Source of the DNA: Diadema antillarum | Taxonomy: Eukaryota | Assembly (NCBI RefSeq): GCF_040938485.1 | Contig: NW_027271056.1 | Span: 2,666,001-2,730,000 of the forward strand | DNA: 64,000 bases | Direction of reading: 5' to 3' | In this document: positions 15,201-27,800 of the stretch, piece by piece | Position numbering within the stretch: position 1 is the stretch's first letter | Layout of the letters: each line of letters opens with the position of its first letter | Program-made: the position numbers

Positions 15201-18200
15201 GAAAGGTTCAGTCTTTATTTGTTTTGTGTTCTTGTTTTGGTTTCCTTGTGTCACCCCTCAGTAGTTAGATGCTGGGACTTCCTTGATGATGATCCTTGAG
15301 GCGCTGTTCCATCCCGTGTAGGCGTCGTAGTCCCCGTACCCGGAGCAGTCCCCGACCATGAACTTCACGTCCACGCTGCCTGCAGCCACGTTGTGACAGT
15401 AGCCTATCATTTGACATGGGTGAAAAAATATGCAAATAATGGTCTCCCGTAGTCCTATCGACTGATTTGAGCAAATTTGAAATATCAATAGTTTCATATT
15501 TTCTTTCAAAAGTAAATCTTTACAACATAAGTCTTTTTTATAAGATGATATCAAAAGTAATTCGCCTGTGTGGACGTAAAGACCTAGTTTTCTTGGACTG
15601 TCCAACGTCAAAGCCCACTGGCATACCAACACACGCGCGAGCTTTCAGTCCATTTCACGTCCGTTAGCTACGCTTTGTTCCTTTAAGCCAAGTACACTTT
15701 TCATTAAACGTTCGATCGATGTCTTCTTTACATGTTTTAAATGTTCATGCGTAATCGTGTTCATTGGTTTTGAATATTTTGTAAAGCATATCTTGGTTGT
15801 GATAACTGTTACTCTTCATGTCTTTTAATCTTTTCGTAGGGGACCCAATATGTGTTCAGTGTAATTGTTATTGTCTGTATGTTTGAAAAGTATCCTTTTA
15901 GGTTCTTACCTACTGTGAAGACAAAAATTTTCGCGAATTTCAAGAGAAGCCAAGATTCGCAAAAACTTGAAATGCATGCGAAATTTCTGGTCTACATTAT
16001 GTATTGAATGCCAGTAGTAATTCGTAAAAACTTCATTCAGCGAAAGAGACCGTCCGCTTCAATCCGCAAAAATGTCATGCCAGAGATATTTCTGGGTTTG
16101 TAGTACGTAGTGAACTTTTTCTGTTGTGAATTTTACTGCTGGCACTGAGCTGCACAAGCTTGAATTGTTAAAACAGCTTTAAACCAACCCAAATCTACCT
16201 CCAAGTCGACACAAATAGGACATTAATAACTTACCTTGAATACTCCTGTGCCGGTGAAGATTCATGTAGTAAGTGTTTTCCTGGTAGACTACGCCGTCAA
16301 TGGGAGTGGGAGAACATTCGTCGTCGTTGAAGGTAAAGTACCATCGCTTGCAGCAACCGGTACAGCCGTAGAGACGGATGTTTCCTCCGTAGTAGACCCA
16401 TAAAGCCGAACTGCTTTCTTTCTTATTAAACGTACACGTCTGAAGAAAGAAAAAACAAAACAACCAACAAAACAAACAAGGAAATGCAGTTATTCTAGTA
16501 GAGCCATTGGTTAGGTTACCTGACCGGCAGAGCCTCTTTCTCACTGATGAGAGTGAAGAACAATTAAAAAAAAAAAAACATCATGGAAGCAGACAAAATC
16601 GCATGAATAATCAAGTTCAAGTTCAAGTTCAAATTTATTTTCATTTCCATCAAATAAACAGAGAAAATTATATACAATGTATAAGCAGAACATATTTGTA
16701 ATATTTGCAATAACGCGAATTAGCAAAATACATGTGATAATGAGTAACAAAATGAAGAAACATAATTGTTTTCAAATTACGGCGCAATATCTTTTTTGTT
16801 CTCAAAATGACGTTAGGTATCTTTAAAACCTTAAATAATTCCAATGTATGGATTGGACAACGATGAACATTAGTAACATTACTGGTGTACCAAGAAACTT
16901 ACGTAGATTGTATCGTAGTCGTTCCCATTGGCAGAATACCAGGCACACTGTTTCCAGTTGTTATACTCGAGGAGTTCCCCCGGGCCCGCATCTCCGGTAG
17001 CACCCTGTGGCCCTGGGGGTCCGGGAGGTCCCACCGGTCCTTGAGCGCAAGACTAAAACAAACAATTGCATTAACTATCTCTGGACCACCGAAATCTACG
17101 GGCCGTGTCACACCTTTCCGGGCAAGCCTTGCGTGCGCCTTGCGAAGAACAATTTTTACTACCCGGAGCCGGAGGTCCCCCAGATGACCCGCACATGACA
17201 GTACCTAGCACGTATCTCACCCTTGGTCGCCCGGAGGTGCGCACGTAAATCTTTTCACCCGCATCTATGTTTAGGCCCTGTCACACCTTTCCGGGCAAGT
17301 TACGAGGGCTTGTTGAGTGTAGAGATTTTCCAGCATACCGGAAATTCCTGAGGGCGGACAAGGATTTGAGCGAGTCAGTGCACGTGTCTTACAAGCTGGA
17401 CGCTCTCTAATTAAGTTCTACTTGCGGTTATTCTGTGTGACCTGCGTGCCAGGCGCGTGGGGCTGATAACTCAGTGAAAGAATTCCTCTGAAGGAATGGC
17501 AGAAGTCCCACAGAATGTCATTATCTTGGCTGCATACGGGGACTGCGAAGAACTGTGTGGGAGTTGTCTTCGAGGTGCTGCCGCTAAGGGCCTCCTACTG
17601 GCGTTCTGCGTGGACCTCTGCGGGCAAAAGTTTTGGTCATGCTCAAAACTTGGCTGCGGGTAAATCGGACTTGCGTGCGCACCTCCTGGCAACTATGGCA
17701 AGATAGGTACTGCCAGGTGCGGACCAACTGCGGAGAGCTCCGGGTAGTAAATTTTTTTTTCCCCTTAAGTCAACCCGCAAAACTCCCCCAGATACGGTAT
17801 GAAAAGGCCTTGAGCATGCTCAAAACTTGTTCCGAATGAGTCGCGGGGGTTCGCCCGCAGAGATACACGCAGAACACTAGTAGGAGACCCTTACCGGCAG
17901 CACCTTGCGGGCAACTCCAACGCAGGTACTTCTCGGTACCCGTAAGTCGCTCGTAACAGAAAACGGATCGGTTTCAAAGCTCTCACGCAGGTCACACGGA
18001 ATACACGCAAGTAGAAGGTAAGTAGCACGAGTCTAGCAGGTAAGACACAAGTGCAAAACTCGCAAACATTCTTGTCCGCCCGCAGAAAATTCTCCTGCGT
18101 GCTGGAAAATCCCTACTCGCAACAAGCCCGCGTAGCTTGCCCGGAAAGGTGTGACACGGCCTTAAGACTTAGCATCAAAATGTTAATGATAAGAATGAAA

Positions 18201-24800: not shown

Positions 24801-27800
24801 TTGTAACGGGCCGACTGGTATATTTGCCTCATTCGTTACGTAGTGAAATCATCCATAAAATTAGTGGAATACAAGATCCACCACCAAAGGAGAAAAATTC
24901 ACACATCTTTCCCTCCCTGCAAACACACAAAGCACACAAAGTTTTGAACTTTATTGACTGCCCTTAAAATTCGGAATAATTCCTTGTCCCCATAAGGAAC
25001 TAATTAAAAATTGGAACGCACATGTCACCAATTTCTTTTCAAACACCATCACTGCAACGCTGAATCGACGACATACGAAGCGTACACTCACTGTACGAGT
25101 TTAAGACACCAGTAGTTATACGTCACTGCTGTGACTTACAGAACTTACCGATCCCCAAGCAAGCACACATGAAACTGGGAAGAAGATCAGAAAAATGAGA
25201 CAATACAGCATCTTCTTCACTTCCCAAGTGACTTTAATCCAAGAATAATTCCTTCCGCAGAAGTTCTATATATACAGGATGGATGCTAGCACGACGGAAA
25301 TCCGTATTCTTGCCGAAATCTTGCTTACAAATTCATTACTAAAGTTCGCTCCTTTTCCAGGCGTTCGGAAAAGTTCCACCAAATAAGCAGTCCGATAAGT
25401 TGACTCTTTGCTAACAGATCAATTGGGAGACCAAGAGATATGCTTGATTTCATTACAACCATGTAGTTGTCGGTCTGTCGTCACTGACCGAATCAATATG
25501 TAGGTGTTTCGATTTTTTTTTGCACGATGTTACTGGTTACCTGTTCGGTTCTAACATTATTGTTCGTACACCTCACACTTAATTGGGTGTAGCCTCTGGT
25601 TTGCTACTCCATGTAGTTTTCTCAGTTTAGTAGTGTATTGTTAGATTTCTGGGGTGTAATCGAGGTCACTGCAGGATGCAGACGTTTGAATGATGGCAGA
25701 CATTGCATTCCTATATTCGGCTTAACTTGCTTTTTTTTTTAACCTCCCAGTTTAAGAATACGTCTGCAACAGTCTGGTATATTCGTGCAGTCACAATAAT
25801 ACAATACCGTAGTTTCTTACAATTTATCGTTTGATCGACATTTCCGAATAATCAGTTTCTTAAATGTAACTTCACACCAGTTGAATAAGCTGATAAGTCT
25901 ACGTTATCATTGTCTTAATACACACTCATTCATTTGAACAATTAATATATGTCACTACGACAAGAATGACGACACAACTAAACAACGCACGTAGTTTGTG
26001 CAGGGAGGTGGAAGAACTTTCTTCCACCTCCCTGGTTTGTGCAAGCACAGCTACAAAACACAACAGCTATGACCACAACACCGACACGATCTGAAGATCG
26101 ATACATTCTTCTCAACGTTATTTCGTGGCGCTCTTCTACGTAACTCCTTTGTTGGGCTTGAATAGTATACTGACGAATGGCTCTACGGTCTTTGAAATAA
26201 GATCGCATCATGTGTATGCTTATAACGCAACATTACGTCTTGTAACAGAAAGGAAACGATGTTTTTTTCCAAGTTTTATACCAATACGTATTATAACTGT
26301 TTCTTTTCCTGATGTATTACAGGTGATGAAGTCTACTCATTTTATGCTTATTTGCACTCGAGGTGTATGCCGAGACAGTTATCTTCAATAATTATAATGC
26401 CATGTACTCATTTAACCCAGCGTCTAGGAACTTCTGACATCTATACTGATTAAACAAAGAGGTTAATATACTGTTTATACATCCGCAGCTGCAAACGGGT
26501 CATCAAGAGTTTTATCGCCGACGGTAATAGGCTTCGGCTTCAATTATGGGCTTTCATCCCACTCTCTTCATAGACATACTTTGTCCAACTATAAACTGAG
26601 AAAAGATGTACTCATATACTCATAAGGTTCCATTTTGAGAGAAAAATGAACAATTATGGACGGTCTTCTTTACCACTCCTTCGTGGGTATTTCGTTTCCA
26701 AGTTGTAACACCTTTGACACATCGCCAAAATCTCATGTAAGGCAACAACGTTGGGTTATGCATGCTCTACTAAAAGGCGTGTAGCTGCGTGATGAAAATT
26801 AGAAACTCTCACGTAACTAGGGTCCCTATACCAGGGTCTGTTAGCAGCATGAGGCTGTTGCGACTGATGGTGATTTCTTTCAGCGGGACCATTAAACAAC
26901 AGCGAAGTTCTTTTACTGGAGATGATTCCGAGAACCTCTCTTTTTATTCAATCCCGCATTAGAGTCAGTAGCTGTATAATAAGCATGTCACTTTATTTGC
27001 TGTTGCAAAATCTGTCTTTTAGTAGTTAGATGCTGGGACTTCCTTGATGATGATCCTCGAGGCGCTGTTCCAGCCCGTGTAGGCGTCGTAGTTCCCATAC
27101 CCGGAGCAGTCCCCGACCATGAACTTGACGTTCACGCTGCCTGCAGCCACGTTGTGGCAGTAGCCTGTGAGAATTGAATGAGAAATAAAGAGGACGAGTA
27201 CTGTGGTATTACGCCAGATTTTCACAAAGGATGACAAATGACAAATATTCCTGATTCAAGTAATCAGTTTTTGCTGGCGTTGTTTTGATTGGCTCACCAT
27301 ATTTGTCTTGTAAGGCATGTTTTAGAACAGTGCTTATACTGAGGCTGAGGTTTGATGGATAAGACCACAACACTGTAGAGCCATCTTGTCTTTTTCAGTA
27401 TACATGTATATGTATGAATAAAAGCTAGACTGCATGTCTATTGAGATATATTACGCAGATTTGAAATGAGTCCTACATATCTAAATTCTTGCAACCGTTG
27501 AGTCCTTTTCATTTCAAGGCCAACACTGTCTTTAACTATTTTGACGTCATCATGTTGCTAAAACATTTTATCTTGAGTTGAACTTGTCAGGGACACCATC
27601 CCAGGAACATCTAACCATGATGGATCCTCCGTAGGGTCCATGATCTAAACCGTAAGCCTCTTTCACACGAATTGGAAAGTAGTGATTTTTAAGCAAATGT
27701 CCTTCTTTTTCCTAACACGACTTGGAAAGTAGTGATTTTAAAGTAAATATCCTTCTTCTTCCGTACACTAATGATTGTGCCTTAATTCAAAGTTGAGAAT

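What the first reader, a model, noticed from the sequence alone, without database searches (positions are those of the whole stretch)
15258..27164. Exon-restricted homogenisation: exon 4 is ~98% identical among A, B and C while exon 3 is not
Seen by manual count: exon 4 A vs B differs at 3 of 143 coding nt and B vs C at 4. Exon 3 A vs B differs at about 36 of 205, and B vs C at about 30, almost all synonymous (2 aa changes). Introns and 3' flanks diverge right at the exon-4 edges. Exon 4 GC3 is about 81% (38/47) against about 54% for exon 3 of C. Inference: recurrent interparalogue gene conversion, possibly GC-biased, confined to the last exon.
[Added by the scan's program, not by the reader: the finding's places include an assembly gap (unread letters, written N; its length is only estimated) at 19054 to 19190. 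Whether the letters on both sides are continuous or in frame is not known: test that first.]
Basis: partly seen in the sequence, partly recalled or inferred. Interest (0 to 1): 0.65.

Follow-up and report, generated by a model that had tools for sequence, protein, structure and literature searches.

The report
Last-exon gene conversion in urchin CTHRC1 genes
Three neighbouring copies of a sea urchin collagen-like gene have kept their last exon almost letter-for-letter identical while the rest of each gene drifted apart, most likely because the copies keep overwriting each other there, which is a known process seen here in a new gene family.

Summary
The window is sea urchin DNA (Diadema antillarum, by exact protein identity), not human. 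It carries six tandem CTHRC1-like genes on the minus strand, each with four exons.

- **Exon 4 among copies A, B and C:** they differ at 3, 4 and 7 of 143 coding bases.
- **Exon 3:** they differ at 37, 30 and 39 of 205 bases.
- **4-fold sites:** 1-3 of 20 differ in exon 4, against 10-11 of 22-25 in exon 3.
- **Flanks:** introns and 3' flanks cannot be aligned right up to the exon-4 edges, and even the three stop codons differ.

Controls show exon 4 is not simply slow-evolving. Against paralogue D it is as diverged as exon 3. The younger pair E/F diverges evenly across exons. Codon preference and RNA structure do not explain the identity.

Non-allelic gene conversion bounded by the exon is the best explanation (about 0.8). 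One residue of copy B matches A in D. antillarum and C in D. setosum, which hints at an event after the species split.

"Recurrent" and "GC-biased" are suggested but not shown. "Confined to exon 4" is nearly right, since exon 2 of B/C is borderline.

The N gap lies in intron 1 of gene A and touches no exon. This is a new member of a known kind, of modest interest.

The parts
15258..15403 (-). Gene A exon 4 (143 coding nt plus TGA stop); homogenised segment
   Evidence: AG acceptor and reading frame; matches CTHRC1_C positions 99-137; 3 of 143 differences from B and 7 of 143 from C
21840..21985 (-). Gene B exon 4 (143 coding nt plus TAG stop); homogenised segment with no base unique to B
   Evidence: differs from A at positions 68, 72 and 92, and from C at 8, 33, 38 and 107
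27019..27164 (-). Gene C exon 4 (143 coding nt plus TAA stop); homogenised segment
   Evidence: GC3 40 of 47
16235..16439 (-). Gene A exon 3 (205 nt), not homogenised
   Evidence: AG/GT; CTHRC1_C E=3.5e-20; 37 of 205 differences from B, longest identical run 17 nt
22394..22598 (-). Gene B exon 3 (205 nt), not homogenised
27866..28070 (-). Gene C exon 3 (205 nt), not homogenised
   Evidence: GC3 37 of 68
16903..17052 (-). Gene A exon 2 (150 nt; short Gly-X-Y collagen repeat and start of the C-terminal domain)
   Evidence: weak Pfam Collagen match below cut-off (E=0.0076); 26 of 150 differences from B and from C
23745..23894 (-). Gene B exon 2; intermediate similarity to C (10 of 150, all synonymous)
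30097..30246 (-). Gene C exon 2
20079..20141 (-). Candidate exon 1 of gene A (signal-peptide-like, MLYSLIILLGFTLPCIHAWGA, GTAAGT donor), on the far side of the N gap
   Evidence: 70% identical to the B exon 1 region. Not used by the NCBI model P0017. Inference.
25149..25211 (-). Candidate exon 1 of gene B
   Evidence: The NCBI model P0018 shares only its last 10 residues.
30616..30696 (-). Exon 1 of gene C
   Evidence: identical to the N-terminus of P0001
19054..19190 (.). Assembly gap (137 N) inside intron 1 of gene A; touches no exon
33540..38075 (-). Gene D, the unconverted comparator (exon 4 33540-33691, exon 3 35024-35228, exon 2 36995-37144, exon 1 37986-38075)
   Evidence: identical to P0003; exon 4 differs from A/B/C at 39-40 of 141 aligned coding nt (47 shared codons)
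41845..45002 (-). Gene E, one of the younger control pair (exon 4 41845-41993, exon 3 43348-43555, exon 2 43958-44113, exon 1 44928-45002)
   Evidence: E-F divergence is even across exons
47406..51477 (-). Gene F, the other of the control pair (exon 4 47406-47554, exon 3 48929-49136, exon 2 50039-50194, exon 1 51403-51477)

Best explanation
The window holds a tandem array of six CTHRC1-like genes of the sea urchin Diadema antillarum. Copies A, B and C are old duplicates: 4-fold sites in exons 2-3 differ at 28-48%, and introns and flanks can no longer be aligned.

Their last exon has been homogenised by non-allelic (interparalogue) gene conversion between neighbours 5-7 kb apart. The tracts are bounded by the exon because it is the only stretch left with long runs of perfect identity (36-68 nt, against 17-29 nt in exon 3). 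Heterologous introns and 3' UTRs stop strand exchange at the coding edges. Purifying selection on the very conserved C-terminal peptide, together with conversion itself, keeps this island of homology alive.

Shown: the exon-specific, A/B/C-specific lack of synonymous change; the sharp edges; the failure of the rate, codon-preference and RNA-structure explanations.

Inferred: the mechanism (homology-bounded repair copying), more than one event with one probably after the split from D. setosum, and a possible GC bias behind the raised GC3.
For: 1. **Synonymous codon identity**. Codons for the same degenerate amino acid are identical in 42 of 44 (A-B), 38 of 43 (A-C) and 41 of 44 (B-C) cases in exon 4. 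In exon 3 the figures are 34 of 58, 31 of 59 and 36 of 63. Fisher p is 1.8e-5, 1.1e-4 and 2.6e-5.
2. **4-fold sites**. Exon 4 differs at 1, 3 and 2 of 20. Exon 3 differs at 10 of 22, 11 of 23 and 11 of 25.
3. **Exon 4 is not a slow exon**. Against D, exon 4 differs at 39-40 of the 141 aligned coding nt (47 shared codons) and exon 3 at 54-64 of 205 (p 0.47-0.9). 4-fold sites in exon 4 against D differ at 11-12 of 16. E-F dS is 0.16, 0.15 and 0.26 for exons 2, 3 and 4.
4. **Not a recent whole-gene duplication or crossover**. Among A/B/C only the exons align, whereas E/F introns align at 60-80%. Flanks match at 9-13 of 30.
5. **Codon preference cannot do it**. Random draws from the exon's own codon usage predict 30 of 44 identical codons; 42 were observed (p 1e-5). 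6 of 10 positions with an A/T-ending codon are identical in all three copies.
6. **No RNA element**. Fold z-scores are +1.8, +0.8 and 0.0, and no Rfam family lies in the exon.
7. **Run test**. For A-B the longest perfect run is 21 of 179 variable sites, p 0.002.
8. **Trees**. The exon-4 tree unites A, B and C (support 95/92) on a stem of 0.69. The exon-3 tree unites B, C and D (97/92).
9. **Across species**. D. antillarum and D. setosum orthologues of A, B and C differ at only 2 of 3 x 166 residues, both in exon 4. B residue 130 is D (as in A) in one species and N (as in C) in the other. In the window that site is linked to two synonymous sites that also match A (positions 8, 33, 38).
Against: - The run test is not significant for B-C (p 0.27) or A-C (p 0.32; segment score p 0.067).
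- Tree incongruence is not decisive: the AU test gives p 0.05 for forcing A+B+C together in exon 3 and 0.11 for forcing B+C+D in exon 4.
- The seven variable sites of exon 4 fit a plain star tree with branch lengths A 3, B 0, C 4. Their clustering (three runs of 3, 3 and 1) is not significant by my own count (7 of 35 arrangements).
- The identity ends exactly at the last sense codon on one side and within 3 nt of the acceptor on the other, in all three copies. That is also what nucleotide-level selection on the coding exon would give.
- No orthologous DNA, reads or population data could be examined, so species-wise clustering of exon 4 at silent sites is untested.
- The cross-species evidence is a single amino-acid site and could be a parallel change.
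Confidence: 0.8

Rival explanations
1. Exon 4 of A/B/C is under selection at the nucleotide level. Candidates are strong codon preference, a splicing or translation signal, a small-RNA target, or an overlapping element. Silent sites would then be conserved rather than copied.
For: Identity stops exactly at the coding edges. GC3 is high (0.81-0.85), and sea urchins are reported to prefer G/C-ending codons (PMC3704236, abstract seen in the listing).
Against: - The same exon in D, E and F is free to vary. Against D, 4-fold sites differ at 11-12 of 16, and E-F has its highest dS in exon 4.
- Codon usage alone predicts 30 of 44 identical codons, not 42.
- Several synonymous codons are used for the same residue within the exon, yet the choice is the same at each position in all copies. 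Unpreferred A/T-ending codons are shared at 6 of 10 positions.
- No better-than-shuffled RNA fold and no Rfam hit.
- It does not explain B residue 130 switching between the A and C states across species.
Confidence: 0.08
2. One or two old conversion events homogenised exon 4 and the copies have since diverged independently. There would be no ongoing or recurrent process and no GC bias.
For: The seven differences fit a star tree (A 3, B 0, C 4). The mosaic pattern in B is not significant. The weak/strong asymmetry is not significant. Exon-4 4-fold divergence (1-3 of 20) is not far below that of the E/F pair (4 of 20).
Against: B has no unique base, which has chance about 0.06 if 7 changes fall evenly on 3 copies (my arithmetic). 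B residue 130 differs between the two Diadema species by exactly the states of its neighbours A and C. GC3 of exon 4 is raised only in the homogenised copies (0.81-0.85, against 0.69 in D and 0.54-0.58 in E/F), while exon 3 shows the reverse order.
Confidence: 0.25
3. Assembly or polishing artefact: exon 4 of two copies was overwritten or collapsed from one copy during assembly.
For: The window has four N gaps, so it went through scaffolding or patching. Reads could not be examined.
Against: - Each copy keeps its own differences (3, 4 and 7 of 143) and joins cleanly to unique flanks with intact splice sites.
- The copy-specific exon-4 residues recur in proteins annotated on a second D. antillarum contig of 2.13 Mb, and nearly so in the independent D. 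setosum assembly.
- Published D. antillarum assemblies are HiFi/ONT based and retain both haplotypes (passages of PMC13511894 and 10.64898/2026.05.24.727502). Such reads span a whole gene copy. I cannot show that the window comes from one of those assemblies.
Confidence: 0.04
4. Unequal crossing-over or a recent segmental duplication replaced the 3' ends of the genes.
For: Tandem same-strand copies 5-7 kb apart are a good substrate for unequal crossing-over.
Against: A crossover or segmental copy would carry intron 3 or the 3' flank along. Both are unalignable right at the exon edges and the stop codons differ.
Confidence: 0.02

Closest known systems
Regional gene conversion in clustered protocadherin genes of fugu (also reported for zebrafish and human)
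   Same: Tandem paralogues have a sharply bounded 3' coding region that is nearly identical at silent sites, while the 5' part is diverged. GC3 is higher in the homogenised part, and the authors use this as a mark of repeated conversion (PMC1852091, passages read).
   Different: There the tract is part of one large exon and is shared by many paralogues at more than 99% identity. Here it is a whole small terminal exon (143 nt) of a four-exon gene, shared by three copies at 95-98%, with both tract ends at exon edges. The family (CTHRC1-like) and phylum (echinoderm) differ.
Concerted evolution of duplicated genes by gene conversion, as reviewed with the primate red/green opsin genes
   Same: Close tandem paralogues exchange short tracts. 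Divergence is a mosaic along the gene, and apparent age is underestimated in converted parts (PMC3924837, passages read).
   Different: In opsins the introns are homogenised and an exon is kept diverged by selection. Here it is the reverse: one exon is homogenised and the introns are fully diverged.
Raised GC3 in converting paralogues such as mammalian Hsp70 and histone genes
   Same: Conversion between paralogues goes with raised third-position GC.
   Different: Here the GC3 rise is significant only as a composition contrast, and the direction of change is not shown.
Cthrc1 gene family (Dynamic Evolution of the Cthrc1 Genes, PMC7058181)
   Same: The family has tandem duplicates and clade-specific diversifications, including in echinoderms (passages read).
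   Different: That paper's main text has 0 occurrences of 'gene conversion'. Its supplementary trees could not be seen.

Membership tests
CTHRC1 (collagen triple helix repeat containing 1) family | CTHRC1 C-terminal domain (Pfam PF25815) | tested here: met
   Exon 3 of A scores E=3.5e-20 (73 bits, cut-off 27) on profile positions 26-96. Exon 4 of A scores E=3.1e-15 (57 bits) on positions 99-137. Exon 3 of E scores E=8.3e-20. Exons were searched one by one.
CTHRC1 (collagen triple helix repeat containing 1) family | Short Gly-X-Y collagen repeat before the C-terminal domain | tested here: inconclusive
   Pfam Collagen scores E=0.0076, 16.4 bits, below the 27.2 cut-off. Read directly, exon 2 of A has GPVGPPGPPGPQGATGDAGPG, seven Gly-X-Y triplets.
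CTHRC1 (collagen triple helix repeat containing 1) family | N-terminal signal peptide (secreted protein) | not tested
   Hydrophobic exon 1 candidates were found by a simple scan. No signal-peptide predictor was run.
CTHRC1 (collagen triple helix repeat containing 1) family | Named as such in reference annotation | tested here: met
Non-allelic (interparalogue) gene conversion / concerted evolution | A segment whose paralogue divergence at silent sites is far below that of adjoining segments of the same genes | tested here: met
   4-fold differences are 1-3 of 20 in exon 4 and 10-11 of 22-25 in exon 3. Fisher p on codon identity is 1.8e-5 to 1.1e-4.
Non-allelic (interparalogue) gene conversion / concerted evolution | The low divergence is not a property of the segment itself (rate control with unconverted relatives) | tested here: met
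   Against D there is no exon heterogeneity (p 0.47-0.9). E-F dS is 0.15-0.26 and highest in exon 4.
Non-allelic (interparalogue) gene conversion / concerted evolution | Significant runs of identity by a permutation test of the Sawyer/GENECONV type | tested here: inconclusive
   My own implementation on 179 variable sites gives A-B p 0.002, B-C p 0.27 and A-C p 0.32. GENECONV itself was not available.
Non-allelic (interparalogue) gene conversion / concerted evolution | Different tree topology in converted and unconverted segments | tested here: inconclusive
   The best trees differ, but the AU tests give p 0.05 and 0.11.
Non-allelic (interparalogue) gene conversion / concerted evolution | In the converted segment, paralogues within a species are closer than orthologues between species (DNA level) | not testable with these tools
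   No eukaryotic DNA collection was on hand. At protein level only 2 residues differ between species, both in exon 4, and one toggles between paralogue states.
Non-allelic (interparalogue) gene conversion / concerted evolution | Polymorphisms shared between paralogues in a population | not testable with these tools
   No read or population data.
GC-biased gene conversion | Raised GC3 in the converted segment relative to unconverted segments and unconverted relatives | tested here: met
   Exon 4 against exon 3: A 38/47 against 40/68 (p 0.015), B 38/47 against 42/68 (p 0.039), C 40/47 against 37/68 (p 0.0006). Exon 4 of A against E p 0.025, against F p 0.008, against D p 0.24.
GC-biased gene conversion | Excess of weak-to-strong over strong-to-weak changes in the converted segment | tested here: inconclusive
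   Unpolarised counts against D in exon 4 are 7-9 strong-in-ABC against 4-5 weak-in-ABC. In exon 3 they are 8-11 against 16-17. No single test is significant. No outgroup DNA was available to polarise.

The most novel reading that the evidence does not exclude
Exon 4 is a self-sustaining island of homology in which conversion is still running in living Diadema species, with a GC bias that has pushed GC3 from about 0.55-0.7 to 0.81-0.85 within 143 bp. If so, three things follow. GC-biased conversion would act in echinoderms at the scale of a single exon. Part of the 'clade-specific diversification' seen in Cthrc1 trees across animals would be concerted evolution rather than recent duplication. 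And the homogenised C-terminal strands might be kept alike because A, B and C co-assemble.
Probability: 0.15. Interest if true: 0.5.

Novelty: new member of a known kind. Interest (0 to 1): 0.35.

Why it matters
- **Dating and trees.** Any dating or tree of these CTHRC1-like paralogues that includes exon 4 will make old duplicates look young and species-specific. The family is described as showing repeated clade-specific diversifications (PMC7058181). Exon-level conversion is an untested contributor to that picture.
- **A test case for gene conversion.** The locus is compact, with a 143-nt tract, built-in unconverted controls (exons 2-3, copy D, pair E/F) and two sequenced congeners. That makes it a convenient natural case for measuring tract limits and GC bias of non-allelic conversion in an echinoderm.
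- **Otherwise ordinary.** It is an ordinary example of a well-known process.

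Tried and rejected
- **RNA structure as the cause of silent-site identity.** Rejected: exon 4 of A, B and C folds no better than shuffles (z +1.8, +0.8, 0.0). D and E behave likewise (+1.4, +0.5).
- **Known RNA family in the exon.** None. The only Rfam hit in the window is tRNA-like at 39714-39775.
- **Extra copies or lone exon-4 fragments as donors.** tblastn with seven exon peptides finds only the six genes. 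The 90% cluster holding A/B/C has 6 members, all accounted for by A, B and C of the two Diadema species.
- **Mosaic structure of B from the window alone.** Three runs among 7 sites is not significant (my count, 7 of 35 arrangements).
- **Topology tests.** Not decisive.
- **Protein tree of 18 echinoderm CTHRC1 proteins,** restricted to the exon 2-3 part, to date the A/B/C/D duplications. It is poorly resolved: 2 of 12 inner branches are well supported, and Acanthaster falls with the Diadema copies.
- **Nei-Gojobori dS** is saturated or undefined for most old pairs. I relied on 4-fold sites and codon identity instead.
- **PDB sequence search with exon 3.** No meaningful match (best E 0.4).
- **Antisense or alternative-frame ORFs through exon 4.** They exist but are also open in D and lack starts. 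I judged them a by-product of G/C-rich third positions and did not test further.
- **Spliced models.** Exons were searched one by one, and full-length comparisons used database proteins only.
- **Structure and complex prediction.** Not run, because they do not bear on the nucleotide-level question.

Full report
**What the window is.** The window is AT-rich (GC 0.29-0.46 per 2 kb) and has four N gaps.

Exons 2-4 of all six have AG acceptors, exons 2 and 3 have GT donors, and the frames are open. I searched exon by exon. Exon 3 and exon 4 match the Pfam CTHRC1 C-terminal domain (E 3.5e-20 and 3.1e-15). Exon 2 holds a short Gly-X-Y repeat, with a Pfam Collagen match below cut-off.

A protein search with the exon-3 peptide of A returned 15 hits among 16 candidates. 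[quoted passage not shown] Gene C is identical to XP_071490012.1 and gene D to XP_071490014.1. Exons 2-4 of A and B are identical to XP_071490010.1 and XP_071490011.1. So the window is sea urchin DNA, not human. I built no joined spliced model of my own and searched none. Full-length comparisons used database proteins.

**The gap.** The N run 19054-19190 lies in intron 1 of gene A. Exon 2 ends at 17052. A signal-peptide-like exon 1 candidate with a GTAAGT donor lies at 20079-20141. It is 70% identical to the exon-1 region of B.

Nothing family-like abuts the gap. Exons 2-4 of A are all below the gap and all of B is above it, so the exon 3 and exon 4 comparisons do not depend on it. Whether A's exon 1 truly joins exon 2 across the gap is unknown. 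The NCBI model for A does not use that exon.

**The observation.** Exon 4 coding bases differ at 3 of 143 (A-B), 4 of 143 (B-C) and 7 of 143 (A-C). Exon 3 differs at 37, 30 and 39 of 205. Exon 2 differs at 26, 10 and 26 of 150.

A-B exon 3 carries 7 amino-acid changes, not 2; B-C carries 2.

Silent sites tell the same story:
- Identical codons for the same degenerate residue in exon 4: 42 of 44, 38 of 43 and 41 of 44. In exon 3: 34 of 58, 31 of 59 and 36 of 63.
- 4-fold sites differ at 1, 3 and 2 of 20 in exon 4, and at 10 of 22, 11 of 23 and 11 of 25 in exon 3.

The edges are abrupt. 11-13 of the last 30 intron bases match, and 9-11 of the 30 bases from the stop codon onward. The stops are TGA, TAG and TAA. 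Sensitive blastn between the gene regions aligns only exons among A, B and C.

**Controls.**
- *Is exon 4 simply slow?* No. Against paralogue D, exon 4 differs at 39-40 of the 141 aligned coding nt (47 shared codons) and exon 3 at 54-64 of 205, with no heterogeneity (p 0.47-0.9). 4-fold sites in exon 4 against D differ at 11-12 of 16. Scaling by D predicts 22-24 exon-4 differences among A/B/C, where 3, 4 and 7 are seen.
- *Does a normal young duplicate look like this?* No. E and F have even dS across exons (0.16, 0.15, 0.26), and their introns still align at 60-80%.
- *Codon preference?* Drawing codons at random from the exon's own usage predicts 30 of 44 identical codons, against 42 observed (p 1e-5). 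Several synonymous codons serve the same residue within the exon, yet the choice at each position is shared. 6 of 10 positions with an A/T-ending codon are identical in all three copies.
- *RNA structure or a known RNA?* Fold z-scores are +1.8, +0.8 and 0.0. No Rfam family lies in the exon.
- *Other donors?* There are only six copies in the window, and the protein cluster holding A/B/C has no further members.

**Tests aimed at conversion.** My Sawyer-type permutation over 179 variable sites is significant for A-B (perfect run of 21, p 0.002). It is not significant for B-C (0.27) or A-C (0.32; segment score 0.067).

Per-exon ML trees differ. Exon 4 unites A, B and C (95/92) on a long stem. Exon 3 unites B, C and D (97/92). 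AU tests are borderline (0.05 and 0.11).

The seven variable exon-4 sites are unique to C (positions 8, 33, 38, 107) or to A (68, 72, 92). B, the middle gene, has none of its own. This fits B exchanging with both neighbours, but it is not significant alone.

**Across species.** D. setosum has orthologues of A, B and C, so the triplication predates the split of the two species. The orthologue pairs are identical over exons 2 and 3.

The only 2 differences in 3 x 166 residues lie in exon 4. A residue 143 is D against S. B residue 130 is D (the A state) in D. antillarum and N (the C state) in D. setosum. In the window that B site sits with two silent sites that also match A. This is the pattern expected from a conversion after speciation, but it rests on one residue, and no D. 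setosum DNA could be read.

Proteins annotated on a second D. antillarum contig (2.13 Mb) repeat the same copy-specific exon-4 residues. A published D. antillarum assembly annotated by NCBI is HiFi/ONT based and retains both haplotypes (passages of PMC13511894, and of preprint 10.64898/2026.05.24.727502). That makes the second contig a likely allele and makes collapse of a 146-nt exon unlikely. I cannot show that the window comes from that assembly.

**GC bias.** GC3 of exon 4 is 0.81, 0.81 and 0.85 in A, B and C. It is 0.69 in D and 0.58 and 0.54 in E and F. For exon 3 the order is reversed: 0.59, 0.62 and 0.54, against 0.71, 0.72 and 0.68.

Exon 4 against exon 3 gives p 0.015, 0.039 and 0.0006. 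The direction of silent differences against D also flips, at 7-9:4-5 in exon 4 and 8-11:16-17 in exon 3, but no test is significant.

Purple sea urchin is reported to prefer G/C-ending codons under selection (PMC3704236, abstract in the listing). GC-biased conversion is therefore suggested, not shown.

**Mechanism proposed.** A, B and C are old same-strand neighbours 5-7 kb apart. Exon 4 is the only segment that still offers long perfect matches (67, 68 and 36 nt, against 17-29 nt in exon 3 and 20-44 nt in exon 2).

Repair copying between paralogues can start and finish only inside such a block, so tracts end at the heterologous intron and 3' UTR. Strong protein-level constraint keeps the block long (dN 0.009-0.018 in exon 4 against 0.019-0.061 in exon 3). 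Each conversion then resets the silent sites. The pattern is shown; the mechanism is inference.

Exon 2 of B-C (10 of 150, all silent, 44-nt perfect run; p 0.026 against exon 3) may be the trace of an older or rarer exchange. It may also only mean that B and C are younger than A.

**Comparison with what is known.** The closest described case I read is regional conversion in fugu protocadherin clusters. There, near-identical 3' coding regions with a discrete boundary are shared among tandem paralogues, and GC3 is raised in the homogenised part (PMC1852091, passages).

The general theory and the inverse opsin case are reviewed in PMC3924837 (passages).

For the family itself, PMC7058181 reports tandem duplicates and clade-specific diversification including echinoderms, with 0 occurrences of 'gene conversion' in its main text.

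My searches for Cthrc1 with 'sea urchin' (14 papers, 10 listed) and for Cthrc1 with collagen-like, evolution and duplication (1 paper) turned up no report of conversion in this family.

**Left unchecked.**
- Orthologous or allelic DNA, because no eukaryotic nucleotide collection was on hand.
- Sequencing reads.
- Population data.

**Verdict.** Gene conversion bounded by the last exon is the best explanation (about 0.8). The recurrence and GC-bias claims are plausible but unproven. This is a new member of a known kind, of modest interest.

Noticed in passing
window 17092-18170: A roughly 1.1-kb foldback-like element of nested inverted repeats (arms of 65-76 nt, 75-86% complementary) sits in intron 1 of gene A, just upstream of exon 2. 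It makes this the most GC-rich 2-kb bin of the window (0.46). It is probably a transposable element insertion.
   Followed up: partly
window 20079-20141: A good signal-peptide-like exon 1 for gene A lies beyond the N gap. The NCBI models of A in both Diadema species (P0017, P0020) start with two odd residues directly before exon 2 and have no signal peptide. Gene A may be mis-annotated.
   Followed up: partly
window 23745-23894 and 30097-30246: Exon 2 of B and C differ at only 10 of 150 bases, all silent, with a 44-nt perfect run. That is less than exon 3 (30 of 205; p 0.026). This may be an older exchange or a younger B-C split.
   Followed up: partly
window 15258-15260, 21840-21842, 27019-27021: A, B and C stop at the same codon position with three different stop codons (TGA, TAG, TAA). 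They end two residues earlier than D and the Lytechinus, Strongylocentrotus and Acanthaster proteins, which end in ...YGY.
   Followed up: no
window about 15332-15334 (gene A exon 4, residue 143 of the mature part): The one exon-4 residue that sets A apart from B/C (D against N) is also the residue at which A differs between D. antillarum (D) and D. setosum (S). The same codon has therefore changed more than once.
   Followed up: no
window 41845-51477: Genes E and F are a younger, more divergent subfamily pair. Their dS is 0.15-0.26 and even across exons, and their introns still align. Their exon 4 shows no homogenisation.
   Followed up: yes
proteins P0002, P0025, P0026, P0021 (Lytechinus variegatus): In the exon-4-encoded part, four L. 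variegatus paralogues show all four combinations of two variable residues (GFG or GYG with DAY or DAS). This is a four-gamete-like pattern that could mean exchange between paralogues in another urchin (output).
   Followed up: no
window 7726-9024: Tandem repeats of 269 and 486 nt (2.0-2.3 copies, 86-88% matches) lie between two long minus-strand ORFs. These are 6690-7661 (weak NHL-repeat-like match, below cut-off) and 9269-9868 (no convincing family).
   Followed up: partly
window 29209-29595: An ORF fragment with a weak reverse-transcriptase match (RVT_1, E 0.00099, below cut-off) lies in intron 2 of gene C. It is probably a decayed retroelement.
   Followed up: partly
window 39714-39775: An Rfam tRNA match (38.5 bits, model positions 6-65 of 71) lies on the minus strand next to the N gap 39826-39961. 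ARAGORN calls no tRNA anywhere in the window, so it is perhaps a tRNA-derived repeat.
   Followed up: partly
window 2872-3016, 36034-36239, 39826-39961: There are three further N gaps. 36034-36239 lies in intron 2 of gene D, and 39826-39961 lies between D and E. None touches an exon of the six genes. Long (TA)n runs lie at several places, for example 19330-19380 and 21740-21800.
   Followed up: partly
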